DNA of 27,422 nucleotides from a virus. Shown piece by piece: positions 3,818-20,360 of the stretch (position 1 is the stretch's first letter; each line of letters opens with the position of its first letter). The stretch lies in IMG/VR virus record IMGVR_UViG_3300035208_007474, one strand, 5' to 3'. A model generated the notes under the pieces. It did no database searches and had not been told where the DNA came from. It saw nothing but the letters and a program-made list of their open reading frames with translations. The position numbers and the translations under genes are program-made.

Positions 3818-4462
3818 ATGACATCAGTGGCTCAAAATAAGATGGTTATAGGGTTGGTAGGCGGAATAGCCAGTGGTAAAACTATGATAGCGGAGTATCT
3901 TTCTCGTAAAGGTGCCACTATTTTTAATGCCAGCGTAGAAACCAGAAAAGCCTTAAGCAGTAAGGAAATGGTGGAAATGATTTTCGCTCAGTGGCCAGTT
4001 ATAAAAGCCACGGCGGTTATACAGGGTGTTACGGACATAACGATTTTGAAGAAGGAGCTTGCTAAAATTGTCGAATCTGACGACAACGAGCTTGCCTTTT
4101 TAGAAGGTCTTTTGTTCCCGATTGTTCGTAATCGCATGGAGAAGTTCGTTCATGTTATAAAACAAGGTGTGATTGTTATTGACGCCCCCTTGTTGTTCGA
4201 AATCGCTTGTGAAAAATATTGTAATGAGATTTGGTTCATTAACATGCCGTTGAAAGAGCGTTTTGCTCACTATATCAGACGTTTTGTCGGTGATGATATC
4301 GAAATCATACGCAAGGATTTTAAACTGCGTGAAGCTCGTCGTATGTCACTTCTTGAAAAAATGCGACGGTCAACTTTTCAAATCCCCAATAGAACAGGTC
4401 AGCTTTATACGACGTGGAGGACTGTCGATAAATTTTGGAATAGAATAATTACCAAATTGTGA
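3818..4462 (+). CDS. Dephospho-CoA kinase (CoaE) family P-loop kinase
   Basis: VIGLVGGIASGKTM matches CoaE IGLTGGIGSGKST; LLFPIVR / VVIDAPLLFE / RRFV-IRKD blocks are collinear with CoaE. Substrate assignment is uncertain. Confidence 0.55.
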   Translation: MTSVAQNKMVIGLVGGIASGKTMIAEYLSRKGATIFNASVETRKALSSKEMVEMIFAQWPVIKATAVIQGVTDITILKKELAKIVESDDNELAFLEGLLFPIVRNRMEKFVHVIKQGVIVIDAPLLFEIACEKYCNEIWFINMPLKERFAHYIRRFVGDDIEIIRKDFKLREARRMSLLEKMRRSTFQIPNRTGQLYTTWRTVDKFWNRIITKL

Positions 4463-4465
4463 TAT

Positions 4466-4651
4466 TTATTCGATATTATCTTTATCTGACTTGTCTAGTT
4501 CCGAACGTAAAATCAGTACATTTTCGTTAGCTTCGATGCCTAAACGTACTCTATTGTGGCTATCAATTCTGACTACCGTAATACTGATATCGGGATTCCC
4601 CGGTGTTCTTAAGATAATTTTTTCGTCTTTCTTCCTAGATAGAACTAACAT
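4466..4651 (-). CDS. csrA: Carbon storage regulator CsrA/RsmA homolog (RNA-binding translational regulator)
   Basis: 61 aa; MLVLSRK is identical to the Bacillus CsrA N-terminus and the VRLGIEA..NVLILRSEL core matches CsrA beta-strands; RBS AAGGAG 8 nt upstream; it is the only minus-strand gene in a long plus-strand block. Confidence 0.85.
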   Translation of the reverse strand: MLVLSRKKDEKIILRTPGNPDISITVVRIDSHNRVRLGIEANENVLILRSELDKSDKDNIE

Positions 4652-4732: not shown

Positions 4733-4762
4733 TTTTACAACAGACATTGGTTACGTATACTT
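4733..4762 (+). promoter_or_regulatory. sigma70-like promoter TTTACAAC-N-TATACT upstream of the AT-hook gene
   Basis: Member of the recurring TTTACA(AC) -35 family in this window. Confidence 0.4.
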
Positions 4763-4859
4763 TAAGGTGGAAAAGAACCCGGCTATTGTTAGTGGCCCGA
4801 TAGCTAGTAAAAAATAGGTTGAAAATAGGTCGCAGTCAAAAAGTAGAAGGAGTCTGAAC

Positions 4860-5528
4860 ATGAGTAAAGTAACTAATCATCCCCAAGTACTTGTGGCTTT
4901 TGAGGAACAGGCGCAGAAAGCTGTTCAAGAGGCACAGCTTGCTGAAGCCAAAGCAATTCTTTTCCGTTATCGTGCCAGTCTGTGCGAACAAGCTCAGGCA
5001 GTTAGGTCCGACACGGAAAAGATTATGTCCGAAATGACAGCCAAGCGTGAGGACATCGAGAAGCAGATTGTCGATATCGACAACAAAATTGTTGAAGTTG
5101 ACAAAGGTCAGATTCCTGCTAATATGCCAGAATTGACCGTTGCCGCCATGCCAAAACGTGGTCGTCCAGTCGGCGTAAAGGCCAAAAAGGCTGGTCGTCC
5201 TGCAAAGGCCAAAAAGGCTGGTCGTCCTGCAAAGGCCAAAAAGGCTGGTCGTCCTGCGAAAGTAAAGGCGACAAAGCGTGGCCGTCCGCTCCATACTTCC
5301 AGAGCGCATAATGAGCTTCCGTTGCGTCAGGTCGTTACCAACGTCCTGAAGGGAGCCAAGAATGGCCTGAACTTGACCGAATTGGTCGAAGCTATCGTCA
5401 AAACCGGCTATAAGTCGAAGACGAAAGACGATTTCGCAAAAATCGTCTATCAGGCGGTTTACAAGCTCTGCAAAGAAAAAACGGCGACCAAAGAGGCTGC
5501 AACCAAGAAGTATCGTCTCGTCGCTTAA
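4860..5528 (+). CDS. AT-hook / histone H1-H5-like DNA-binding protein (N-terminal coiled coil, 5 GRP AT-hooks, C-terminal linker-histone-like winged helix)
   Basis: KRGRPVGVKAKKAGRPAKAKKAGRPAKAKKAGRPAKVKATKRGRP; the C-terminal LTELVEAIVKTGYKSK...KKYRLV resembles the H1 globular domain. Confidence 0.75.
   Translation: MSKVTNHPQVLVAFEEQAQKAVQEAQLAEAKAILFRYRASLCEQAQAVRSDTEKIMSEMTAKREDIEKQIVDIDNKIVEVDKGQIPANMPELTVAAMPKRGRPVGVKAKKAGRPAKAKKAGRPAKAKKAGRPAKVKATKRGRPLHTSRAHNELPLRQVVTNVLKGAKNGLNLTELVEAIVKTGYKSKTKDDFAKIVYQAVYKLCKEKTATKEAATKKYRLVA
5181..5261 (+). repeat. 3 x 27-nt near-perfect tandem repeat (gccaaaaaggctggtcgtcctgcaaag) encoding AKKAGRPAK x3 inside the AT-hook gene
   Basis: Direct reading of the sequence; the third copy has a single substitution. 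Confidence 0.9.
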
Positions 5529-5553
5529 AACGGAAAACAGGTTTTTCTGTAAT

Positions 5554-5593
5554 GCTCCACTCGTAAAAAAATGCGAGTGGAGCGTTTTTTTTC
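5554..5593 (+). terminator. Rho-independent terminator (GCTCCACTCG-loop-CGAGTGGAGC + T9)
   Basis: 10-bp perfect stem followed by a T-run, 26 nt after the stop at 5528. Confidence 0.7.
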
Positions 5594-5671
5594 TTCCGTT
5601 TTTGAAACACTATACTATACTAATCTAGACCCCGATGCAGTTGGTTCCCCCCGGCCAACTGCTCAAAGAAG

Positions 5672-5707
5672 CCCCGACAGTCTCCCCCCGCTGTTGGGGT
5701 TTTTTTA
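5672..5707 (+). terminator. Second rho-independent terminator (CCCCGACAG-tctccccccg-CTGTTGGGG + T7); may be the 3' end of a small RNA
   Basis: 9-bp stem (one G-U pair) plus a T-run; preceded by a second hairpin (5637-5662) with a similar C-rich loop. Confidence 0.55.
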
Positions 5708-5790: not shown

Positions 5791-5819
5791 TTTACAATTG
5801 CTTGTTGCCTAAATACAAT
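5791..5819 (+). promoter_or_regulatory. sigma70-like promoter TTTACA-N17-TACAAT for clpX
   Basis: Hexamers at 5791-5796 and 5814-5819; RBS GGAG 9 nt before ATG 5844. Confidence 0.5.
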
Positions 5820-5843
5820 GGGTAAAAGAAGGAGTGAGTGTTT

Positions 5844-7115
5844 ATGGCAAAGACAACCGAAGCAACTAAAGACAAAGACGTATGTAATTTTTGTGGTAAG
5901 TCGTGGCAGAAAGCAGGCGTAGGGCAGCTTGTGGAAAGTAAAATTGCCAAGAAAAAAGGACTTCCCAATGTGCGTATTTGTGCCAATTGCATAGCGATGG
6001 CAAATAACCTGTTGCAAGCCGAGCGACAGCAACGTGTAAAAACAGACAGCGATAGAGTTCTTAAAGCTCTTCCGTCTCCAAAGAAAATCGTGGACCATCT
6101 AGACCAGTATGTAATAGGGCAAGATGCGGCCAAGCGTAGTCTGGCTATTGCTGTTGTTAATCATTACAAACGATTAGTGGCAGAAACAAGCGAACAAGAT
6201 TCAGATGTACAATTGGAAAAATCCAATATTCTTATGATTGGTCCCACAGGTTGTGGCAAGACCCTTTTGATTCAAACATTGGCTAAAATGCTTGAGGTTC
6301 CATTAGCCATTGGTGACGCCACATCTTTGACAGAAGCCGGATATGTTGGAGATGATGTTGAAAATTTGCTTTTGCGATTGATTCAAGCCGCAGATAACAA
6401 TATTGAATTAGCACAGCGTGGAATTATTTACATTGACGAAATTGATAAAAAACGAAAAACTGGTGGTAATGTTTCTATCACAAGGGACGTGAGTGGCGAG
6501 GGTGTGCAGCAAGCTTTGCTTAAGATTATCGAAGGTACTACCGCTAATGTGCCGCCTCAAGGCGGTCGAAAGCATCCTGAGCAAGTATGTATCCCATTTG
6601 ATACTCGTCATACACTGGTAATTTGTGGTGGTACGTTTGTCGGTTTGGAAGATATAATTATCAATCGTATCGGGCGATGTGGTTTTGGTTTCGGTGTAAA
6701 ACCGACAGAATCCACTGAAACCCAAGATAATATTTTGGCTCGGGTAACTCCACAAGACCTCGTTGAATTTGGTATGATTCCCGAATTTATTGGGCGACTT
6801 CCCGTAATCACTCATGTGACATCATTGGACGAAGATGCGTTGTGTAGTATTTTAACTGAACCCAAAAATGCTTTAATTCGTCAATATCAGAAACTATTTG
6901 ATATGGATGGAGTAAAATTAGTGGTCGAAGATAATGCGCTAAAGGCAATTGTCAAAGCCGCTAAAATAAAAGGAACTGGTGCAAGGGCAATGCGTGGTAT
7001 TCTGGAAGAAGTAATTTCTCCCGCCATGTTTGATTTACGTTCGATGGCCGGTAAAACCTACACTCTCACAGAAACCATTGTTCAACAAATTCTTGAAAAT
7101 AATAAGGCAGCATAA
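5844..7115 (+). CDS. clpX: ATP-dependent Clp protease ATP-binding subunit ClpX (N-terminal C4 zinc-binding domain + AAA+)
   Basis: CNFCGK...CANC zinc finger; Walker A GPTGCGKT; Walker [10 protein letters not shown]; ClpX-family conservation along the full length; I chose the ATG at 5844 over the GTG at 5838. Confidence 0.9.
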
Positions 7116-7117
7116 AA

Positions 7118-7555
7118 ATGAAAACGGAAGCGATTTTAAAAGAAATTGTCAAGGACATGAAGAGTATAGTAAACATAGCAGGAAGTTTGCTGGTAGAGTC
7201 TCTCCCTGTCACCGCCACATGTGACCTTTTGATTATTTTAGATGAAGAATGGAATAAATTTTGTGATTCCAACCCAGAGACAATGGAGGCAATTGTGGAT
7301 GAGTTGGTTAAAAGAGAAGTTTATTCAATAACACCAATCATGAAAGAAAAAGGTTGGACTGCATTACAAATGGTTGAAAATTATGGTGCCAATTGGCACA
7401 TTTATGCGAAACCATTAACTTGTCCATATTGTAAGACTGACCTTCGTGACCCAATGGGACCGCCATTTAAGCGGGAAATAGGGCAATACGACCAAGCCAA
7501 AGACCGAACGATTTGTTTTCTTTGTCCGAATTGTCAAAATATTGTAAAGAGTTAA
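7118..7555 (+). CDS. Hypothetical protein with C-terminal zinc ribbon (CPYC...CPNC)
   Basis: 145 aa; starts 3 nt after the clpX stop. Confidence 0.5.
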   Translation: MKTEAILKEIVKDMKSIVNIAGSLLVESLPVTATCDLLIILDEEWNKFCDSNPETMEAIVDELVKREVYSITPIMKEKGWTALQMVENYGANWHIYAKPLTCPYCKTDLRDPMGPPFKREIGQYDQAKDRTICFLCPNCQNIVKS

Positions 7556-7557
7556 TT

Positions 7558-7836
7558 ATGTTTGGACAATTGAACAACGAAGACAATTATTATGCGTATC
7601 TTAAAACACAAGCACCAAAGGACGCAGACTGTAAAAAAGTGCTTTGGTGTCTTGAGGCTACGTTAGACCATTTTCTTTATGAACAAGAGCAAGATGAAAA
7701 ATTTCGGCACGATTGTGCTGAAATTCTTTTAAGAGCTTATTTTATAGATAGGTCAGCGTTCGACGGGGCAGATGCTAGATTAAAACATTTAGCACAGATT
7801 TTGGCTTATTTCGAAGAACTTCTCGCTCATGCTTGA
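7558..7836 (+). CDS. Hypothetical protein (92 aa)
   Basis: I chose the internal ATG at 7558, 2 nt after the previous stop, rather than the overlapping 7513 start. Confidence 0.45.
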   Translation: MFGQLNNEDNYYAYLKTQAPKDADCKKVLWCLEATLDHFLYEQEQDEKFRHDCAEILLRAYFIDRSAFDGADARLKHLAQILAYFEELLAHA

Positions 7837-7868
7837 TTTCTTTTGAAAAACAAGTAAAATTATAGTCC

Positions 7869-8273
7869 ATGACGATTTTATTTATATATGGTACGTTAAA
7901 ACGTGGATTTCATAATCATTGCCTATTAGATGGGCAAACATTTATATCCGTGGCTTTCACTAAGTCGATATATAGAATGTATGATTATGGTCATTTTCCT
8001 GTTATGGTTGTGGACATGGACGGCGTAAATATTCACGGGGAATTGTGGGAAGTGAATGATTTTTGTTTAAAGCAATTAGACAGACTAGAAGGCATCCCAC
8101 ATTTTTATGACAGATTGCCTGTTGAATTACTAGCCTCACTTCGATGTACCGGACGCCATCGCCGCCCGAAGGCCAAGGTTCATAATATTAAAGCTGAAAC
8201 TTATATCTGGCAGGGAGAAGTAGTTGGGTTAGAAGATTGTGGCCATAAATGGATTAAGAAGGCTAGGAAATAA
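7869..8273 (+). CDS. Gamma-glutamyl cyclotransferase / AIG2-like family protein
   Basis: N-terminal IYGTLKRG (YGSL-type motif), GELWEV, LDRLEGIP..YDR, all typical of the GGCT/AIG2 fold. Confidence 0.65.
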   Translation: MTILFIYGTLKRGFHNHCLLDGQTFISVAFTKSIYRMYDYGHFPVMVVDMDGVNIHGELWEVNDFCLKQLDRLEGIPHFYDRLPVELLASLRCTGRHRRPKAKVHNIKAETYIWQGEVVGLEDCGHKWIKKARK

Positions 8274-10854: not shown

Positions 10855-10974
10855 AACTTCCCTTTCAACTTCCTTTTCAACTTCCCTTTCAACTTCCCTT
10901 TCAACTTCCCTTTCAACTTCCCTTTCAACTTCCCTTTCAACTTCCCTTTCAACTTCCCTTTCAACTTCCCTTCC
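10855..10974 (+). repeat. 10 x 12-nt perfect tandem repeat (AACTTCCCTTTC), intergenic or leader
   Basis: Read directly: 8 identical copies, one C->T variant (copy 2) and a degenerate last copy; it ends 9 nt before ATG 10984. Confidence 0.95.
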
Positions 10975-10983
10975 TTCGGTGCT

Positions 10984-11892
10984 ATGACGGCACGATTTAT
11001 AATGACAAGGATGAAATTGAATATACGAAATAATATGCCTAGTTTTTTTAGATATCCGGGTGGAAAATCTAAATTAAGAATTCAAATCACAAATGCTTTG
11101 AATAAATGGTCTTCGGATACCACAGAGTATAGGGAGCCATTCTTTGGTGGTGGGTGCATTGGAATAGAGTTTCTAAAGTGTAATCCAAACATTAAAGATA
11201 TTTGGATTAACGATAAAGACGATGGTATCTCTTGCTTATGGACATCAGTGATAAATTATCCAGAGTTGCTAAAGGATTTGGTTCATAATTTCAAACCGTC
11301 TGTTGAAAAGTTCGATGAATTTAAAAGTAAGCTTATTGCGGCACCAATTCTAAAGTCAGACGAGGAAGTTGTGCAATATGGTTTTATGAAATTAGCCATT
11401 CATCAAATATCATATTCTGGATTGGGAACAAAATCTGGTGGTCCTTTAGGTGGTAGAGAACAAAAGTCTAAATATCTTATTGATTGTCGATGGTCGGTTG
11501 ATTACATATGCAAAAAAATAGATTTATTGCATGATATGTTTTCAAAATTATCTGTCAAGGATAAAAAGTGTTCTTGTTTAGATTTTGCCGATGTCATTGC
11601 CGACGCTGGAAGTGCCGTTATATATCTTGACCCGCCATATTATGTAAAAGGAAATGACTTGTATCAAGTCGGCTTCACTCAAGAAGACCATTCTCGCCTT
11701 GCTGACTTATTAAAAAAAACCCATTTGTGGGTTTTGTCTTATGACGACTGTGACGAAATTAGAGAATTATATAAGTGGGCACATATAAAAGAAATTCATG
11801 AAGTGAATTACAGTATCACCGCATTAAAAGATAAGCAAACGGGCAATAGATTGTCTCGTGCTAAAACAGAATTATTGATTACACCATTTTAA
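10984..11892 (+). CDS. dam: Dam-family (D12 class) N6-adenine DNA methyltransferase; the true start may be the internal ATG at 11014 or 11035
   Basis: FFRYPGGKSKL (Dam FLKWAGGKxxL), EPFFGGG (motif I), DPPY (motif IV); overall T4 Dam / DpnIIA / EcoDam architecture. Confidence 0.8.
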   Translation: MTARFIMTRMKLNIRNNMPSFFRYPGGKSKLRIQITNALNKWSSDTTEYREPFFGGGCIGIEFLKCNPNIKDIWINDKDDGISCLWTSVINYPELLKDLVHNFKPSVEKFDEFKSKLIAAPILKSDEEVVQYGFMKLAIHQISYSGLGTKSGGPLGGREQKSKYLIDCRWSVDYICKKIDLLHDMFSKLSVKDKKCSCLDFADVIADAGSAVIYLDPPYYVKGNDLYQVGFTQEDHSRLADLLKKTHLWVLSYDDCDEIRELYKWAHIKEIHEVNYSITALKDKQTGNRLSRAKTELLITPF

Positions 11893-13789: not shown

Positions 13790-13879
13790 AATTTGCTAGG
13801 CGGGACTAGAATGCTGTTTCCCAATAATTAAATTGTACATGGGGAAGATGTGGATGAAAAATTTCCGAAAGGTGATAAA

Positions 13880-14464
13880 ATGAGTAAATTACAAGATGAC
13901 ATAGTTCAAACATTTAATCAAGGAATGAGTATCGTAGAAACAGCAGAAAAATATGGAATGTCTTATGAAGTTATTTATTGCATAATCACTAAGGCTATCG
14001 GTAATGCGGCAGTTAAAGAACGAAAACGGGATAGAAATAGGTCGGTCATACAAGATTTTACTGACGGTATGAGTCGTTCTAGTTTATGCGATAAATATGA
14101 TTTGTGTTGGGTTACTATTTCTAATATTCTTAAGGCTACTATGAGTAAATGGTCCATCAAAAGGAATGAATTATTAAATCGCAATTTACAAATCATGCAA
14201 GATTACCAACATATTAGTAGACAAGAATTAATGAACAAATATAACTTAAGTTGGACTAGACTTCATGAAATTATCAGTAAAGCAGGGGGAACGGTTAAAC
14301 ATAAACAATATTCATTGCAGTTGTCCTTAAATCTTGGTTTTAAAATTTTGAAAAAGTTATTGTTGAATAAAGATAGTCAATCTATTAGCGAAGAATTAGG
14401 TTGTTCTGTTCAATACGTAAGCTGTATTAGAAAATTGGGACGGGAAAATGGGCTGATAAGTTAA
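13880..14464 (+). CDS. DNA-binding protein with four tandem ~45-aa helix-turn-helix repeats
   Basis: Repeats IVQTFNQGMSIVETAEKYGMSYEVIY / VIQDFTDGMSRSSLCDKYDLCWVTISNI / QIMQDYQHISRQELMNKYNLSWTRLHEI / KLLLNKDSQSISEELGCSVQYVSCI; RBS AAGGTG 8 nt before ATG 13880. Confidence 0.55.
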   Translation: MSKLQDDIVQTFNQGMSIVETAEKYGMSYEVIYCIITKAIGNAAVKERKRDRNRSVIQDFTDGMSRSSLCDKYDLCWVTISNILKATMSKWSIKRNELLNRNLQIMQDYQHISRQELMNKYNLSWTRLHEIISKAGGTVKHKQYSLQLSLNLGFKILKKLLLNKDSQSISEELGCSVQYVSCIRKLGRENGLIS

Positions 14465-14512: not shown

Positions 14513-14546
14513 GCCTTTGTAACGATTGTTATTTAAGAGAATAGAC

Positions 14547-16142
14547 ATGGGTATTAAACTTGAAAAAAACACGTTTCCAGTAAGCCATGGGGCAGAAGAT
14601 TTCCAGTGTTTCGGTCCTCCTGCCACAAAAGATGGCGTATTTGAAGGGACCATGATTGCTGATTGTGGTTGCTTTACTCAGGATGGGAAAGATTCGAATA
14701 AATATTATCACAGTGCGGTTGTTCAGTCTAAATGTAATCAAAAATGGTACGTTTATTTTGAGTGGGGACGAGTAGGGGCAAATCATCCATCATTTCAATT
14801 TACTGATTGTTCAAATAAGTCTGATGCCGAACATGATTATTGTGACCAGCTTCATCAGAAAAATGATAAGCGTGGCGAATGGATTCAACATCCATCTTTG
14901 GGTAAAATTCTTCGAGCGAAAACAGGAAAAGATTGTTATTTGGTAAGGCCGCAGGCCAAAAGAAGTACCGGCCTTCCAGATGCTAGAACCATTGTTCACA
15001 ATGAAGGTGTTTCTGTTGTTAAAACATCCAAGCCAACTGGCAAGGTTTCGACGGTCAATGTAGACAAAGCCACACTTGAGTTAATGCGGGATTTGAATGT
15101 TGGTACAGTTAATTATACCAGAGCTTCTATGGCTGACGCCGCAATTCCAACTCAAGTAGCTTTGGATGAAGCTCGTTCTATTTTGATTGCAGCACAACAA
15201 CGTGTTTCCAATGTGGGTGATGATGTCGAAGACCAAATCAAAGATACGGAATTGAGGCATTTAACGGCACTGATGTATGGCCGAATTCCTAAGAAGAAAG
15301 ACCGCAACGCCTCACCGGATAAATGGATTCTATCAGCGTCTAATATTGGTACGTGGAACCTAGACATTGATGCATTTGAGTCGGCTTTAAAAACTGCCGA
15401 TATGGGACAAGACCAAGCAGACCCATTTGATGGCATGCGACTTCAGATGCGGCATTTGTCTAAAAAAGGTAACCCAATTGGTGAATTTATTCATGGTTGG
15501 GCACCGAGTGCAACACGTAATATGCATAATTATTTGAAGGAAAAATTGCAAATAATTAATGTATGGGAGATTGAACGTGAAGGTGATGCGGCAAAGATAG
15601 CTAGAGTTCAAGCTGCAATTGCTGCACAAAATTGGAAACCGTCAGAAAGACCGCTGCATCAACCTGCTCGGTCGGACCTTTCTAGAAACATTGCTAAGAT
15701 TTATGCCAGAACTAACACATGTTTACTTTTTCACGGCACACGTACTGTAAATGTGTCGGGTCTGCTGCGTGAATCTTGGCGATTACGTAATAATCTGGTT
15801 GGGGTGCAACTTACCGCTGCTATGTTCGGTCCGGGTGTTTATTGGGCTGATGATTGGAAAAAGAGCGCAGGTTATACCAGCATGTCCGGTGCATATTGGA
15901 CAAAGGGCGGCGGTGGTATTGGTGGTCGTGGTGCATTTATGTTTATAGCTGATGTTGTGCTTGGTGCATCTTATCTTGCCCCAAGAGCAGAAGGTTTTAC
16001 GAAACCACCAAATGGTTATCATTCGGTTTTCGGCAAGGCCAATTTTACAAAGGGTAGTTATGGCGAAATTGCCAATAACGAATTTATTACTTATAACAGC
16101 GACCAGTGTGTGGCCAGATATTTAGTAGAATTCGCTAGGTAA
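14547..16142 (+). CDS. Poly/mono(ADP-ribose) polymerase (PARP) homolog: N-terminal WGR domain, helical region, C-terminal PARP catalytic domain with an H-Y-E triad
   Basis: WYVYFEWGRVG (WGR signature); catalytic LLFHGTRTVNVSGLL (H-G-T), GPGVYWADDWKKSAGY (Tyr), NEFITYNSDQ..YLVEF (Glu, as in PARP1 YNEYIVY); I set the start at ATG 14547 downstream of the promoter. Confidence 0.8.
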   Translation: MGIKLEKNTFPVSHGAEDFQCFGPPATKDGVFEGTMIADCGCFTQDGKDSNKYYHSAVVQSKCNQKWYVYFEWGRVGANHPSFQFTDCSNKSDAEHDYCDQLHQKNDKRGEWIQHPSLGKILRAKTGKDCYLVRPQAKRSTGLPDARTIVHNEGVSVVKTSKPTGKVSTVNVDKATLELMRDLNVGTVNYTRASMADAAIPTQVALDEARSILIAAQQRVSNVGDDVEDQIKDTELRHLTALMYGRIPKKKDRNASPDKWILSASNIGTWNLDIDAFESALKTADMGQDQADPFDGMRLQMRHLSKKGNPIGEFIHGWAPSATRNMHNYLKEKLQIINVWEIEREGDAAKIARVQAAIAAQNWKPSERPLHQPARSDLSRNIAKIYARTNTCLLFHGTRTVNVSGLLRESWRLRNNLVGVQLTAAMFGPGVYWADDWKKSAGYTSMSGAYWTKGGGGIGGRGAFMFIADVVLGASYLAPRAEGFTKPPNGYHSVFGKANFTKGSYGEIANNEFITYNSDQCVARYLVEFAR

Positions 16143-18111: not shown

Positions 18112-18393
18112 ATGAAATATTTTCTTGAGTGTGGTGATATCAGAATTTCAATAAACGGACCAGACGAAAATACAGTAGCTCGTCAGTTGGTAAAGCAGAT
18201 GTTGATGGAACAGGCTGATATGGGTCAAATAGTTATGGTGAGCGAAAAGGATTTTTGTTGTAAACGAAGAAATCCTGTTTTGTTAATAACACAAGGATTA
18301 ATTAATGACATCCAAACCAATACCTTCTCTCCACCGCTTGGATTGTTTAACTCCTTCCGAACGATGGATTCGATTGTGGAAAGCAACATTTGA
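18112..18393 (+). CDS. Hypothetical small protein; overlaps the Nudix gene by 89 nt, so its reality is uncertain
   Basis: ORF-track entry; a hairpin at 18083-18106 lies immediately upstream. Confidence 0.3.
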   Translation: MKYFLECGDIRISINGPDENTVARQLVKQMLMEQADMGQIVMVSEKDFCCKRRNPVLLITQGLINDIQTNTFSPPLGLFNSFRTMDSIVESNI

Positions 18394-18922
18394 TGCTGGA
18401 CGAATATGGACATTCGTTAGCAGAAAAGAAAAACCTGAAATCATAACTGGCATATCTTCTGCCGATGCCGTTGTCATTATTGCTTCTGTCTTGCAGTCGG
18501 GGATTCCAAAATTAGTAACCATTAAAGAATATCGGCCAGCTATTGGGGCGTATGAATATGGATTTCCTGCTGGTCTGATTGACGGTGGTGAAAAGCCCGA
18601 AGATGCCGCAGTAAGGGAACTCAAAGAAGAAACCGGATTGGATACGGTGCATATTTATCAGGTAACCCCGCCGTTGTATTCGTCTTCCGGCCTTACAGAT
18701 GAATCCACTATTTTTGTTTATCTTGAAGCAACGGGTACGCTCTCCGCTCATAATCAGGAAGAAACCGAAAATATTGAACCAATGCTATTAGAGGCAAAAG
18801 ATATTATCAATTTATTAGAGCAGAAGGAAAAATTTGCTGAGGGAAGAATTTCGTGTAAATATTGGCCGATTGCTCAGATGTTTGCTACTACTGGTTTATT
18901 ATGTTCGAGGGAAAAAATATGA
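18305..18922 (+). CDS. Nudix hydrolase, ADP-ribose pyrophosphatase-like
   Basis: Perfect Nudix box GLIDGGEKPEDAAVRELKEETGL (Gx5Ex7REUxEExGU); the N-terminal extension plus the PAG..E core follow the ADPRase/NudF layout; RBS AAGGA 7 nt upstream. Confidence 0.8.
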   Translation: MTSKPIPSLHRLDCLTPSERWIRLWKATFDAGRIWTFVSRKEKPEIITGISSADAVVIIASVLQSGIPKLVTIKEYRPAIGAYEYGFPAGLIDGGEKPEDAAVRELKEETGLDTVHIYQVTPPLYSSSGLTDESTIFVYLEATGTLSAHNQEETENIEPMLLEAKDIINLLEQKEKFAEGRISCKYWPIAQMFATTGLLCSREKI

Positions 18923-19319: not shown

Positions 19320-19367
19320 GTGGGGGAAACTAGTTTACAGGTCATCTCAAAAGGATATAATCTTGAT

Positions 19368-20360
19368 ATGGAAATGAAGGATAAAATCCAAGGTATGTTT
19401 TTAGGCACGTTTATCGGTGATGCGCTCGGTTTTCCTGTAGAGGGCTGGTCTTCCGAACGGATTGCTGAAACATATGGTCGTATCATTAGTTTTGTGAAGC
19501 CTGATAAACATAAGTGGTTCGGTGAAAAAGAAGTTGGTACTCCTACTGACGATTGGCAATTAACAAAAGCTGTTGCCGAATCTTTAATCATTAGTGGAAT
19601 GGATATGGATGCGATAGCTGAAGCACATAAAGCCGCATTCAACGAATCAATTGTTGGATGGGGCGGCACAACCTCTAGTGCTGTCCGAAATTTACTAAAT
19701 GGAGCAACGTGGGAAAAGTCGGGGCTTCCTATTGGGATGGGAAATGGATGTGCCATGAAGATTGCTCCCGTAGCTGCTTTAGTCGCCGCTAAGTATCAAT
19801 CTGGTAAAGTTGTAGATTTTATTGTCAAATTAACCTGCATGACTCATCGTAATGTCTTAGCCGTTTGCACGACTTTGGCTCAAGCAGAAGCAATTTATTA
19901 TTGTTTAACTGCCCAAAAATTTAACGCCATCAAATTTGCTAATCGAATTATTGTCGGCAGTGTGCTGGGGGAATTCTTGAGCGAAGATATTGTTACCGAA
20001 GGTATGACTATTGATTTTCCTGATACCACGCAACGATTGAAGTTGTTGAAGGATTATAAAAAATACGACGACCAGAGAATTATCAAAGAATTTCAGGGAA
20101 CAGCTTACGCATACAATAGCATTCCGTTTTCCTTGATGTTTTTTATCAGAAATCCGAATTCTATTAATGCTATGTACGATGTAATTGCGGCTGGTGGCGA
20201 TACAGATACAAATGCTTCAATGGTTGGCTCACTTTTAGGTGCGTTGAACGGAGTTGACATATTTCCAATGGAATTGGTGAATCAAATGTCTTCAAAGTAT
20301 CGGGACGAAGTGACAGATGTCGCTAATCGTTTTTACAACAAATTTTTTGAGGAAAAATAA
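19368..20360 (+). CDS. ADP-ribosylglycohydrolase (ARH/DraG family)
   Basis: GMFLGTFIGDALGFPVEG, GTPTDDWQLT and AAGGDTDTNASMVGSLLGALNG are the three hallmark ARH metal-binding blocks; I chose ATG 19368 over the GTG at 19320. Confidence 0.85.
   Translation: MEMKDKIQGMFLGTFIGDALGFPVEGWSSERIAETYGRIISFVKPDKHKWFGEKEVGTPTDDWQLTKAVAESLIISGMDMDAIAEAHKAAFNESIVGWGGTTSSAVRNLLNGATWEKSGLPIGMGNGCAMKIAPVAALVAAKYQSGKVVDFIVKLTCMTHRNVLAVCTTLAQAEAIYYCLTAQKFNAIKFANRIIVGSVLGEFLSEDIVTEGMTIDFPDTTQRLKLLKDYKKYDDQRIIKEFQGTAYAYNSIPFSLMFFIRNPNSINAMYDVIAAGGDTDTNASMVGSLLGALNGVDIFPMELVNQMSSKYRDEVTDVANRFYNKFFEEK

What the first reader, a model, noticed from the sequence alone, without database searches (positions are those of the whole stretch)
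4860..5528. Histone-H1-like / multi-AT-hook protein built from perfect 27-nt DNA repeats
The protein combines an N-terminal coiled coil, five GRP AT-hooks (three encoded by perfect 27-nt tandem repeats at 5181-5261) and a C-terminal linker-histone-like winged helix. Such proteins compact AT-rich DNA. On a phage they could package or organise the phage chromosome, silence host DNA or displace H-NS-like xenogeneic silencers. The perfect nucleotide repeats imply recent expansion and possible copy-number variation. The gene is flanked by csrA on one side and double terminators on the other.
Basis: partly seen in the sequence, partly recalled or inferred. Interest (0 to 1): 0.55.

Follow-up and report, generated by a model that had tools for sequence, protein, structure and literature searches.

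The report
Huge-phage AT-hook winged-helix DNA-binding protein
A real 222-residue gene on a probable huge phage encodes a probable self-associating, DNA-coating protein from an undescribed family that always sits just upstream of a phage ClpX unfoldase gene and may be removed by it.

Summary
ORF 4860-5528(+) encodes a 222-aa protein with five GRP AT-hooks. Three of them come from a perfect 81-nt block of three 27-nt repeats at 5177-5257. A near-identical contig has one unit fewer, in frame.

AlphaFold gives three parts: a long helix (aa 8-81), a disordered +21 linker carrying the hooks, and a confident C-terminal winged helix. The best fold matches are the globular domains of linker histones H5 and H1. 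However, the ranking barely separates them from Fur, Z-alpha or forkhead domains, and no H15 sequence match exists. By sequence the domain is a divergent HARE-HTH.

It belongs to an unnamed family (526 representatives, metagenomes only) that is usually hook-free. The window protein has the most hooks, and hook-bearing units were duplicated independently in several lineages.

Phage origin is supported by synteny with the 595-kb huge phage LR756511.

One link was not in the original finding. In every locus examined the gene lies one or two genes upstream of a phage clpX. Both proteins tend to end in Ala-Ala, the ClpX degron signature.

Best reading: a Rok/H-NS-like architectural protein that binds AT-rich DNA and is possibly cleared by ClpX. 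It is a new variant of a known kind, of moderate interest.

The parts
4734..4761 (+). Sigma-70-like promoter candidate (TTTACA-16-TATACT) for the gene.
   Evidence: Consensus scan. The same TTTACA-N16/17-TATA(C/A)T type recurs upstream of the orthologue in L094, and upstream of clpX in the window, L094 and L100. This is a consensus match only.
4845..4852 (+). Shine-Dalgarno sequence AGAAGGAG, 7 nt before the ATG.
   Evidence: Read directly from the sequence.
4860..5528 (+). CDS of the 222-aa protein (stop codon included).
   Evidence: ORF list. Near-identical proteins P0001 and P0002. 526 family representatives found with the C-terminal domain profile.
4881..5102 (+). N-terminal long alpha-helix (aa 8-81), the presumed coiled-coil oligomerisation module.
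   Evidence: AlphaFold model m72dcf572c2bb gives helix H8-81 with pLDDT of about 91-94. N-terminal regions of relatives hit coiled-coil Pfam families and designed coiled coils in the PDB. The heptad pattern in the window protein is only moderate, 14 of 21 a/d positions hydrophobic. Oligomerisation is inferred.
5145..5309 (+). Disordered basic linker (aa 96-150). It has 13 K, 8 R and no D or E, for a net charge of +21, and carries five GRP hook cores at nt 5160, 5193, 5220, 5247 and 5280.
   Evidence: Composition and GRP positions. pLDDT is 51-61 with no secondary structure.
5177..5257 (+). Perfect triplication of a 27-nt unit (81 nt in all) encoding KAKKAGRPA three times. Copy number is polymorphic.
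   Evidence: TRF. Exact-period scan. L001 and P0002 carry two units in an otherwise identical sequence.
5310..5525 (+). C-terminal winged helix (aa 151-222): H155-165, H172-182, H192-205 and a beta-hairpin wing at 209-212/217-220. It is HARE-HTH-like, with the family motif GYKS...F..(I/V)VYQ.(L/V)YKL. The protein ends in ...RLVA.
5551..5594 (+). First intrinsic terminator: a 15-bp stem followed by T8.
   Evidence: Terminator scan and fold.
5672..5706 (+). Second intrinsic terminator: a GC-rich hairpin followed by T7. A further hairpin lies just upstream at about 5639-5664.
   Evidence: Terminator scan gives the core stem at 5686-5699. The extended stem appears in the minimum-free-energy fold, z = -9.4.
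4466..4651 (-). Divergently transcribed csrA homologue (61 aa).
   Evidence: Pfam CsrA E=8.5e-16 and NCBIfam csrA below cutoff. The tight linkage is not conserved: in the P0005 contig csrA lies about 9 kb away.
5838..7115 (+). Phage clpX, the conserved downstream partner. It has its own promoter-like site at 5791-5819, keeps the [14 protein letters not shown] and GGRKHP loops, and ends in ...NNKAA.
   Evidence: NCBIfam ClpX E=6.5e-165. Alignment to solved ClpX structures. The X-clpX order is conserved in all loci examined. C-terminal tail statistics.
3818..4462 (+). coaE (dephospho-CoA kinase), part of the conserved block coaE - X - clpX - GGACT - thioredoxin.
   Evidence: Pfam CoaE E=1.4e-23. 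The same order occurs in L094, L095, L100 and L099.

Best explanation
The gene encodes a small architectural DNA-binding protein of a huge phage. It resembles nucleoid-associated proteins.

**Proposed mechanism**
- The long N-terminal helix pairs or oligomerises the protein.
- The disordered +21 linker inserts up to five AT-hooks (two RGRP, three AGRP) into the minor groove of A/T tracts.
- The C-terminal HARE-HTH-type winged helix supplies a folded DNA contact.
- Several weak contacts on each chain, multiplied by oligomerisation, would let it coat, bend or bridge AT-rich DNA. The window itself is 60% A+T. This is the same layout used by Rok, H-NS, MvaT and Lsr2.
- Hook number is adjusted quickly by slippage of the 27-nt repeat.
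- The gene is transcribed on its own (own promoter, strong RBS, two terminators). Its fixed neighbour is a phage ClpX.
- Both proteins carry ssrA-like C-terminal Ala or Ala-Ala. I infer that the protein's residence on DNA, or its lifetime, is controlled by ClpX, with host ClpP or acting as a bare unfoldase. MuA and ssrA-tagged proteins are handled this way.

**Shown:** the domain anatomy, family membership, repeat polymorphism, synteny and tail statistics.
**Inferred:** DNA binding, oligomerisation, AT preference and the ClpX dependence.
For: **Anatomy**
- AlphaFold (43-sequence alignment) has mean pLDDT 83.8. It shows helix 8-81, a disordered stretch 96-150 and a winged helix 151-222 at pLDDT 93-98.
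- The linker has net charge +21 and five GRP cores.

**Winged-helix domain**
- HARE-HTH sequence hits occur in 16 of 43 relatives, and one relative passes Pfam's cutoff.
- The N-terminal oligomerisation / flexible linker / C-terminal DNA-binding layout is the defining plan of H-NS-like bridging proteins, and Rok uses a winged helix (PMC6936261). Weak WH_Rok hits occur in 2 relatives, and Rok-like Bacillus phage proteins appear in BFVD.

**Family**
- 526 representatives at E<=1e-3, mostly 130-200 aa with the same plan.
- Hook count is 0 in 92, 1 in 45 and 2-5 in 15. The window protein has the maximum.
- About 12 representatives carry exact internal repeats of hook-bearing units, with units of different sequence and length in the different proteins, consistent with independent duplications.
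- In-frame copy-number variation of 2 versus 3 units.

**Phage context**
- LR756511 (595 kb) shares the order AAA_33 - X(x2) - clpX - GGACT - HNH - PARP.
- The MVP-like protein is 42-44% identical to those of LR756500, LR756501 and LR756503.
- Family members lie beside clpX on IMG/VR contigs of 173-436 kb.

**ClpX link**
- clpX lies 1-2 genes downstream in all 6 lineages that were reached through the protein itself: the window, P0003, P0005, P0013, P0041 and P0009.
- 78 of 152 family members end in Ala and 47 of 152 in Ala-Ala. Long ORFs in the same loci end in Ala 13% and in Ala-Ala 7% of the time.
- ClpX next to a family gene ends in Ala-Ala in 10 of 11 loci, against 1 of 66 other ClpX.
- The window ClpX keeps the pore-1 GYVG, pore-2 SITRDV and RKH residues that read the Ala-Ala-COO- of ssrA (PMC7652416).
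Against: - No experiment supports any of this, and no family member has been characterised.
- The window protein's own HARE-HTH score is below Pfam's cutoff. Profile comparisons with single RpoE-delta, ASXL1 and GH5 sequences were not significant.
- HARE-HTH domains do not always bind DNA. From my own knowledge, the RNA polymerase delta subunit uses its HARE-HTH domain to bind polymerase.
- 61% of family members have no GRP hook. AT-hook binding is therefore an add-on, not the family's core activity.
- Three of the five hooks lack the first Arg of the RGR core.
- The heptad pattern of the N-terminal helix is weak.

**Against the ClpX part specifically**
- The genes are separate transcription units divided by two terminators.
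- The window protein ends in Val-Ala, not Ala-Ala.
- Only about 2 residues follow the last beta-strand, whereas GFP-LAA, which has a 3-residue tag, is not degraded by ClpXP (PMC7652416).
- Five of the ClpX-adjacent loci were found through ClpX, which biases that subset.
- Shared Ala-Ala tails could be a clade trait, and the synteny could be simple conserved phage gene order.
Confidence: 0.5

Rival explanations
1. The protein reads modified DNA. The HARE-HTH domain would recognise N6-methyladenine or another mark on phage or host DNA, and the hooks would only add affinity. The protein would then tell phage DNA from host DNA, rather than acting as a general compaction factor.
For: - HARE-HTH domains were predicted to sense modified bases because they are fused to restriction endonucleases and N6A methyltransferases (PMC4738411).
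- The ASXL1 HARE-HTH domain bound 6mA-containing DNA in pull-down assays (PMC6591016).
- The window encodes a D12-class N6-adenine methyltransferase at 10984-11892.
Against: - The methyltransferase lies about 5.5 kb away and is not part of the conserved coaE-X-clpX-GGACT block.
- No endonuclease or methyltransferase is fused to, or operonic with, any family member examined.
- The HARE-HTH match is weak.
Confidence: 0.12
2. The protein hijacks the host nucleoid or counters host silencing. It would bind AT-rich host or phage DNA to displace H-NS/MvaT/Rok-type xenogeneic silencers, or to shut down the host chromosome. This is the same biochemistry as the best explanation, with a different target.
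For: - It has the same architecture as xenogeneic silencers.
- Phages and plasmids are known to carry homologues and antagonists of such silencers (titles and abstracts of PMC7074111 and PMC8612146, listed).
- The phage DNA is AT-rich, 39.7% GC.
Against: - The host is unknown.
- There is no homology to any known silencer or anti-silencer.
- Nothing in the sequence separates host DNA from phage DNA as the target.
Confidence: 0.15
3. The protein is a transcription factor associated with RNA polymerase, analogous to the delta subunit (RpoE). The HARE-HTH domain would dock on polymerase and the basic linker would tether it to AT-rich promoter DNA.
For: - From my own knowledge and the Pfam PF05066 family description, the best-known bacterial HARE-HTH protein is the delta subunit.
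- The hhalign alignment to delta is in the correct helix register, although not significant.
Against: - hhalign E=0.14, which is not significant.
- The delta subunit has an acidic tail, whereas this protein has a basic linker and a coiled coil.
Confidence: 0.08
4. The protein is a true homologue of eukaryotic linker histone H1/H5, acquired by a phage.
For: GH5, H1.8, H1.4 and H1x are the top or near-top structural matches. A basic Lys/Ala-rich region adjoins the winged helix.
Against: - No H15/Linker_histone Pfam hit for the window protein at E<=1, and none at E<=0.01 in any of 43 relatives.
- Sequence identity to GH5 is 13%.
- The domain order is reversed relative to H1.
- hhalign against GH5 is out of register.
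Confidence: 0.03

Closest known systems
Rok (Bacillus subtilis xenogeneic silencer) and the H-NS / MvaT / Lsr2 class of DNA-bridging proteins
   Same: [quoted passage not shown]
- In Rok the C-terminal domain is a winged helix that reads the minor groove of AT-rich DNA.
- H-NS and Lsr2 use an AT-hook-like Q/RGR motif (PMC6936261).
- Mobile elements carry variants of these proteins.
   Different: - No detectable sequence homology. There are only two sub-threshold WH_Rok hits among 43 relatives.
- Here the hooks lie in the linker, in up to five copies, rather than inside the folded domain.
- The winged helix is of the HARE-HTH type.
- The gene is encoded by huge phages and paired with clpX.
HARE-HTH domain family (Pfam PF05066: ASXL, HB1, RNA polymerase delta, restriction-enzyme N-terminal domains)
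   Same: This is the best sequence match for the C-terminal domain, both in the window protein and in 16 of 43 relatives. One relative (P0045) passes the Pfam cutoff. The winged-helix fold agrees.
   Different: - It is a divergent subfamily that the Pfam model mostly misses.
- It has its own motif, GYKS..(K)..F..(I/V)VYQ.(L/V)YKL.
- I found no description of the coiled coil + AT-hook + C-terminal HARE-HTH architecture: the literature searches returned nothing, and the jumbo-phage survey has no occurrence of HARE-HTH, AT-hook or histone.
HMGA (HMG-I/Y) and other multi-AT-hook proteins
   Same: Several GRP-centred hooks lie in a disordered, basic segment. Relatives carry the classic RGRPKGSKNK sequence.
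   Different: - HMGA has no folded domain and no coiled coil.
- Three of the five hooks here are AGRP, which lack the first Arg of the core.
- The hooks are optional in the family: 61% of members have none.
Linker histone H1/H5 globular domain
   Different: - No sequence-family membership.
- The basic region is N-terminal to the domain, not C-terminal.
- A coiled coil is added.
- The setting is prokaryotic and viral, with no nucleosomes.
ClpX substrates with C-terminal ssrA-like degrons (ssrA tag, C-motif-1 proteins), and MuA remodelling by ClpX
   Same: The family is strongly enriched in C-terminal Ala or Ala-Ala. The adjacent ClpX keeps the residues that read Ala-Ala-COO-. From my own knowledge, MuA is a precedent for ClpX stripping a DNA-bound phage protein.
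   Different: The window protein ends in Val-Ala with a very short tail. No degradation data exist. The ClpX proteins also end in Ala-Ala, and I know of no precedent for that.
Chthoniobacterales (Verrucomicrobiota) proteins of about 145 aa, such as P0004
   Same: N-terminal coiled coil, then the same KAKKAGRPAKAKKAGRP hook units, then a small C-terminal helix-turn-helix domain.
   Different: - The C-terminal domain is not the same family: the family HMM finds no hit at E<=1, and Pfam gives only a weak HTH_24 match.
- These genes sit in chromosomal contexts at 58-61% GC, without clpX.
- The two DNA repeat copies differ at 6 of 27 positions, so the duplication is older.
- The resemblance is probably convergent, or involves only the linker.

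Membership tests
Linker histone H1/H5 (Pfam PF00538, H15 domain) | Significant sequence match to the H15/Linker_histone profile. | tested here: not met
   No PF00538 hit at E<=1 for the window protein, and none at E<=0.01 in 43 relatives. H1.4 appears in the PDB profile search only at E=0.17, through the basic region. hhalign against GH5 gives E=0.15 and is out of register.
Linker histone H1/H5 (Pfam PF00538, H15 domain) | Three-helix winged-helix fold that superposes on GH5 or GH1. | tested here: met
Linker histone H1/H5 (Pfam PF00538, H15 domain) | Tripartite order: short N-terminal tail, globular domain, long basic C-terminal tail. | tested here: not met
   The order here is long helix (aa 8-81), basic linker (aa 96-150), then winged helix (aa 151-222) at the extreme C-terminus.
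HARE-HTH (Pfam PF05066) | Profile match at or above the Pfam gathering score (25.9 bits). | tested here: inconclusive
   The window protein scores 18.5 bits, E=0.0027, below the cutoff. 16 of 43 relatives hit at E<=0.01, best 6e-6. Relative P0045 matches the domain profile at 1.2e-11 and scores 33.8 bits against PF05066, above the cutoff. Membership therefore rests on a transitive link.
HARE-HTH (Pfam PF05066) | Winged helix-turn-helix fold. | tested here: met
   H155-165, H172-182, H192-205 and a beta hairpin at 209-220, with pLDDT 93-98.
AT-hook motif (SMART SM00384 / Pfam PF02178) | Gly-Arg-Pro core in a Lys/Arg-rich, disordered context. | tested here: met
   Five GRP cores start at aa 101, 112, 121, 130 and 141, within a +21 linker of pLDDT 51-61.
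AT-hook motif (SMART SM00384 / Pfam PF02178) | Canonical Arg-Gly-Arg-Pro core, in which both arginines enter the minor groove. | tested here: inconclusive
   Met by hooks 1 and 5 (KRGRP). Not met by the three repeat-encoded hooks (KAGRP).
AT-hook motif (SMART SM00384 / Pfam PF02178) | Binding to the minor groove of A/T tracts. | not testable with these tools
   This needs EMSA or footprinting with netropsin competition.
[quoted passage not shown] | N-terminal oligomerisation domain, flexible linker and C-terminal DNA-binding domain. | tested here: met
   The AlphaFold anatomy matches the definition given in PMC6936261. Oligomerisation itself is inferred.
[quoted passage not shown] | Sequence homology to one of the four families. 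| tested here: not met
   No Pfam hit to H-NS, MvaT or Lsr2. WH_Rok appears only at E=0.004-0.018, below the cutoff, in 2 of 43 relatives.
Z-alpha (Z-DNA-binding winged helix) | Conserved Asn and Tyr on helix 3, plus Pro-Pro and Trp in the wing (ADAR1 N173, Y177, P192, P193, W195; own knowledge). | tested here: not met
   The profile hits ZBP1 Z-alpha domains only at E=0.008-0.03. The family motif YQxLY aligns with NQVLY, so the Tyr is kept but the essential Asn is replaced by Tyr. The wing has Tyr in place of Trp and no prolines.
ssrA-like C-terminal ClpX degron (C-motif 1) | C-terminal Ala-Ala-COO-. | tested here: inconclusive
   The window protein ends in Leu-Val-Ala. Across the family, 47 of 152 end in AA and 78 of 152 in A, against 7% and 13% in the background. 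The importance of Ala-Ala is described in PMC7652416.
ssrA-like C-terminal ClpX degron (C-motif 1) | An accessible tail of about 5 residues beyond the folded domain. | tested here: not met
   In the model the last strand ends at residue 220 of 222. GFP-LAA is not degraded whereas GFP-YALAA is. Relatives have tails of 3-6 residues.
ssrA-like C-terminal ClpX degron (C-motif 1) | [quoted passage not shown] | tested here: met
   The window ClpX has the motifs [14 protein letters not shown] and GGRKHP, aligned with solved ClpX structures.

The most novel reading that the evidence does not exclude
Huge phages of this lineage may run a small 'chromatin cycle' of their own.
- A self-associating protein combining AT-hooks and a winged helix coats AT-rich DNA.
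- Its number of DNA contacts is tuned by repeat slippage.
- It is stripped or destroyed on schedule by the neighbouring phage ClpX, through an ssrA-like Ala-Ala tail that ClpX itself also carries, which could make the system self-limiting.
- The WGR-PARP, ADP-ribosylglycohydrolase and NUDIX set a few kilobases downstream might add a further layer of control, as PARP1 does for H1 in eukaryotes.
Probability: 0.12. Interest if true: 0.75.

Novelty: new variant of a known kind. Interest (0 to 1): 0.55.

Why it matters
- How huge phages (200-735 kb) organise and schedule their very large genomes is largely unknown.
- This work defines an unnamed protein family seen only in metagenomes. It has 526 representatives at 50% identity and none carries a functional name.
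- The family has the layout of a bacterial chromatin protein, and it lies beside phage clpX in every locus examined, which span several diverged lineages.
- It yields two simple hypotheses that can be tested in vitro without a cultured host: multivalent binding to AT-rich DNA, and ClpX-dependent removal through an Ala-Ala tail.
- It also offers a natural series of proteins with 0-5 hooks for studying how AT-hook number sets DNA affinity.
- If the ClpX link holds, it would explain why so many large phages carry their own ClpX.

Tried and rejected
- **Word-indexed homologue search with the full protein.** It returned only 4 hits, probably because low-complexity hook words swamped the candidate list. 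With the C-terminal 78 aa alone it found nothing. The exhaustive HMMER search with a 2-sequence domain profile was what revealed the family.
- **tblastn of the protein against INPHARED phages.** No match, with the low-complexity filter on. The family was later found in LR756511 with a custom HMM.
- **Pattern-based locus searches.**
  - IMG/VR with alignment A1: nothing.
  - Metagenome DNA 26-mer: nothing.
  - Alignment A4: too divergent to use.
  - Alignment A5: only 3 short metagenome loci and 1 IMG/VR locus.
- **An exact 36-mer from the gene** is absent from IMG/VR.
- **The genome-contig scan** found only Chthoniobacterales look-alikes that share the coiled coil and hooks but not the C-terminal domain. 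I rejected these as family members.
- **PDB searches by sequence.** They gave only coiled-coil and low-complexity noise, plus weak Z-alpha hits. I rejected Z-alpha on its key residues.
- **Other libraries.** Rfam found no RNA family in the window. There are no tRNAs. The AFDB50 fold library was unavailable. BFVD gave no hit at E<=1e-3.
- **Cellular-chromosome origin for the window.** I considered this because csrA, clpX, coaE, trx and gmd are typical bacterial chromosomal genes. I rejected it after finding synteny with LR756511 and LR756500 and family members on IMG/VR contigs of 173-436 kb.
- **The antisense ORF 4836-5309 (157 aa).** It is the mirror image of the repeat region and has no support.
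Full report

Yes. ORF 4860-5528(+) starts at an ATG 7 nt after an AGAAGGAG Shine-Dalgarno sequence and encodes 222 aa. Tandem Repeats Finder reports a 27-nt period with 3.1 copies at 5177-5262. An exact-period scan shows a perfect 81-nt block of 3.0 copies at 5177-5257.

The protein has five GRP cores, at aa 101, 112, 121, 130 and 141. Hooks 1 and 5 are canonical KRGRP. The three repeat-encoded hooks are KAGRP.

csrA (4466-4651, minus strand) is confirmed by Pfam at E=8.5e-16. Two terminator-like hairpins with T-runs follow the gene at 5551-5586 and 5686-5699. The region folds with z = -9.4 relative to shuffled sequence.

A promoter-like site (TTTACA-16-TATACT) lies at 4734-4761. The gene therefore looks like a separate, well-expressed transcription unit.

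**2. Copy-number variation**

Contig L001 comes from a different metagenome. It is identical to the window across about 1.2 kb, apart from one missing 27-nt unit and a 3-nt change in codon 10 (V10K). Its product, P0002, has 213 aa. P0001 has three units together with K10.

Three haplotypes therefore exist, and the repeat changes in frame. The identical copies point to a recent expansion. In the unrelated Chthoniobacterales look-alike, the two copies of the same peptide unit differ at 6 of 27 nt.

**3. Anatomy**

With a 43-sequence alignment, AlphaFold gives mean pLDDT 83.8. It shows three parts:
- One long helix, aa 8-81, with pLDDT above 90.
- An unstructured segment, aa 96-150, with pLDDT 51-61.
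- A compact winged helix, aa 151-222, with pLDDT 93-98: H155-165, H172-182, H192-205 and a beta hairpin at 209-212/217-220.

The linker has 13 K, 8 R and no acidic residue, for a net charge of +21. The heptad pattern of the long helix is only moderate. "Coiled coil" is therefore an inference. It is supported by the coiled-coil hits of relatives.

**4. What is the C-terminal domain?**

By sequence, the only Pfam match is HARE-HTH (PF05066) at E=0.0027 and 18.5 bits, below the 25.9-bit cutoff. Sixteen of 43 relatives hit the same model. The two-domain relative P0045 passes the cutoff with 33.8 bits. No protein hits the linker-histone H15 model.

The list is flat, however. Rv1846c (BlaI-like) scores 8.0, PerR 7.8, Fur 7.7 and FOXN1 7.4, and Z-alpha and ArsR domains score about 7.

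The honest statement is this: the domain is a canonical DNA-binding-type winged helix that happens to superpose best on GH5, and its sequence places it in the HARE-HTH superfamily.

A domain-only profile gave weak Z-alpha hits at E=0.008-0.03, with YQxLY aligning to NQVLY. The essential Asn and the wing Pro-Pro/Trp are absent, so I reject membership of the Z-alpha family.

**5. The family**

A two-sequence profile of the domain, searched against 1.84 billion representative proteins, found 526 proteins at E<=1e-3 and 59 at E<=1e-10. Nearly all are 130-200 aa and follow the same plan: an N-terminal helical region, a basic linker and the domain at the extreme C-terminus. The shared motif is GYKS..K..F..(I/V)VYQ.(L/V)YKL. 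Sixteen of the 152 representatives examined carry two copies of the domain.

All ten members I looked up come from metagenome assemblies only (JGI/IMG, ENA, Logan). The only names given are "hypothetical protein" and one spurious "TolA-binding protein".

Hook counts across the 152 representatives are:

| GRP hooks | Representatives |
|---|---|
| 0 | 92 |
| 1 | 45 |
| 2 | 10 |
| 3 | 2 |
| 4 | 2 |
| 5 | 1 (the window protein) |

About 12 representatives have exact internal duplications of hook-bearing units, and the units differ in sequence and length. Examples are KATGSGRPGRPKGSKNKPKD, STAKRGPGRPKGSTS and KGKVGRPKGS. Multiplication of hooks by tandem duplication is thus a recurrent, independent event in this family. 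Many relatives carry the classic HMGA-type RGRPKGSKNK.

**6. Phage or cell?**

The left part of the window looks like bacterial chromosome: gmd, an epimerase, coaE, csrA, clpX, GGACT and thioredoxin. The rest does not:
- It carries an RNA ligase, a Dam-like methyltransferase, a Mor-like HTH protein, WGR-PARP, NUDIX, an ADP-ribosylglycohydrolase and a protein with vault (MVP) shoulder and repeat domains.
- It also has many ORFs with no Pfam match.
- Almost all of these genes lie on one strand.

The comparisons with known huge phages point the same way:
- The MVP-like protein is 42-44% identical to proteins of the "uncultured phage" genomes LR756500 (462 kb) and LR756501/LR756503 (735,411 bp). 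The last size matches the 735-kb genome of Al-Shayeb et al. 2020 (PMC7162821).
- LR756500 also has the RNA ligase and PARP beside its MVP-like gene.
- LR756511 (595 kb) shares an extended order with the window: AAA_33 kinase, two tandem family members, clpX, GGACT, the HNH-like ORF, PARP (53% identity) and the homologue of ORF 16540.
- Family members also lie 1-4 kb upstream of clpX on IMG/VR contigs of 436, 204, 188, 173 and 49 kb.

I conclude that the window comes from a huge phage of this lineage. The host is unknown.

**7. The ClpX connection (not in the original finding)**

Six lineages were reached through the protein itself: the window/L001, P0003, P0005, P0013, P0041 and P0009. In every one, clpX lies one or two genes downstream. 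The recurring block is coaE (or PRPP synthase) - X - (GT2) - clpX - ... - GGACT - thioredoxin.

The two genes are nevertheless separate transcription units.

The C-terminal tails show a pattern:

| Set | End in Ala | End in Ala-Ala |
|---|---|---|
| Family members (n=152) | 78 (51%) | 47 (31%) |
| ORFs of at least 150 aa in the same loci | 13% | 7% |
| ClpX beside a family gene (11 distinct loci) | not counted | 10 |
| Other ClpX fetched from IMG/VR (n=66) | not counted | 1 |

The binomial p-values for the family against the background are about 1e-29 (Ala) and 1e-17 (Ala-Ala). In the six loci listed ORF by ORF, every Ala-Ala ending but one (a short antisense ORF) belongs to X or to ClpX itself. 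The ClpX tails are KAA, VAA or EAA.

The terminal Ala-Ala-COO- is the key determinant of the ssrA degron. It is read by Y153 and V154 in pore-1, T199 and V202 in pore-2, and R228 and H230 in the RKH loop (PMC7652416). The window ClpX keeps [14 protein letters not shown] and GGRKHP.

This makes ClpX-dependent turnover or stripping of the protein a reasonable hypothesis. There are caveats:
- The window protein ends in Val-Ala, with only about 2 residues after the last strand.
- A 3-residue LAA tag on GFP is not sufficient for degradation.
- The ClpX loci with Ala-Ala tails form a related group, so shared ancestry inflates the contrast.
- Conserved phage gene order alone could explain the adjacency.

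**8. Most likely mechanism**

The plan (oligomerisation helix, flexible basic linker, C-terminal DNA-binding domain) is the defining architecture of the bridging proteins H-NS, MvaT, Lsr2 and Rok. Rok uses a winged helix, and H-NS and Lsr2 use AT-hook-like motifs (PMC6936261).

I therefore read this protein as a phage-encoded analogue. It would be a multivalent binder of AT-rich DNA that coats, bends or bridges DNA. The window protein is an extreme, recently expanded five-hook version. ClpX may act as its remover.

The anatomy, family, polymorphism, synteny and tail statistics are shown. DNA binding, AT preference, oligomerisation and ClpX dependence are inferred.

The rivals are:
- a reader of modified DNA (6mA), which is the predicted role of HARE-HTH, and a Dam-like methyltransferase lies in the window;
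- an agent that shuts down the host nucleoid or counters host silencers;
- a delta-like factor bound to RNA polymerase;
- a true H1 homologue, which is nearly excluded.

**9. Novelty and score**

I found no description of this family or architecture. Full-text searches combining "huge phages" with "AT-hook", and HARE-HTH with AT-hook or phage, returned nothing relevant. The large jumbo-phage survey has no occurrence of HARE-HTH, AT-hook or histone.

The protein is built from known parts in a known functional layout, so I rate it a new variant of a known kind. Interest is moderate (0.55). The family is sizeable, it is conserved beside clpX in a prominent phage group, and it can be tested directly in vitro. 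Every functional statement remains inference.

Noticed in passing
window 5838-7115, and the clpX genes of L002, L007, L009, L010, L073, L094, L100 and L105: Phage ClpX proteins encoded next to a family member end in Ala-Ala in 10 of 11 distinct loci (KAA, VAA or EAA). Only 1 of 66 other ClpX from IMG/VR loci does so. This may mean self-targeting or a shared recognition signal.
   Followed up: partly
window 14526-16142, 18305-18922, 19320-20360 and 23342-25882: One cluster holds a WGR-PARP, a NUDIX hydrolase, an ADP-ribosylglycohydrolase and an 846-aa protein with major-vault-protein shoulder and repeat domains. The MVP-like protein is 42-44% identical in huge phages LR756500, LR756501 and LR756503, and the PARP is 53% identical in LR756511. 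The MVP + PARP pairing recalls eukaryotic vaults.
   Followed up: partly
window 10855-10972: A 12-nt tandem array, AACTTCCCTTTC x 9.8 (98% matches), lies in the gap between the RNA ligase and the Dam-like methyltransferase. Its function is unknown; it could be iterons or an array of binding sites.
   Followed up: no
window 4886-4893 compared with L001: The only substitution between the window and L001 in about 1.2 kb is three adjacent bases in codon 10 (GTA to AAG, V10K). It turns the 8-bp palindrome AAGTACTT into a sequence containing the palindrome AAGCTT. This might reflect selection on restriction sites.
   Followed up: no
window 5595-5706: Between the two terminators lies about 110 nt with two further GC-rich hairpins, at about 5639-5664 and 5672-5699, the latter followed by T7. 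This could be a small RNA with its own terminator. Rfam finds nothing. A similar CCCCGC..GGGG hairpin precedes clpX in L094.
   Followed up: partly
window 4734-4761 and 5791-5819; L094 6343-6371 and 7156-7183; L100 2066-2094: A recurring promoter-like motif, TTTACA-N16/17-TATA(C/A)T or TACAAT, lies upstream of both the family gene and clpX in diverged loci. It may be the lineage's promoter type.
   Followed up: partly
L105 (LR756511) 6994-7485 and 7514-7945: The 595-kb huge phage carries two tandem paralogues of the family upstream of clpX. Neither has AT-hooks. One ends in ...TTAA and the other in ...QYQMK.
   Followed up: partly
L005 924-1397; L087-L091: Chthoniobacterales (Verrucomicrobiota) MAGs at 58-61% GC encode proteins of about 145 aa with a coiled coil, the same KAKKAGRPA hook units and an unrelated small HTH domain. 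The genes sit in chromosomal contexts and represent a probable cellular analogue.
   Followed up: partly
window 4836-5309 (minus strand): A 157-aa antisense ORF overlaps the gene. It is the mirror reading of the repeat region (GRPAFLAF repeats) and has no independent support.
   Followed up: yes
window 13850-14464: A 204-aa protein with Mor-type and HTH_23 helix-turn-helix matches looks like a phage Mu Mor-like transcription activator. It lies just upstream of the PARP gene.
   Followed up: no
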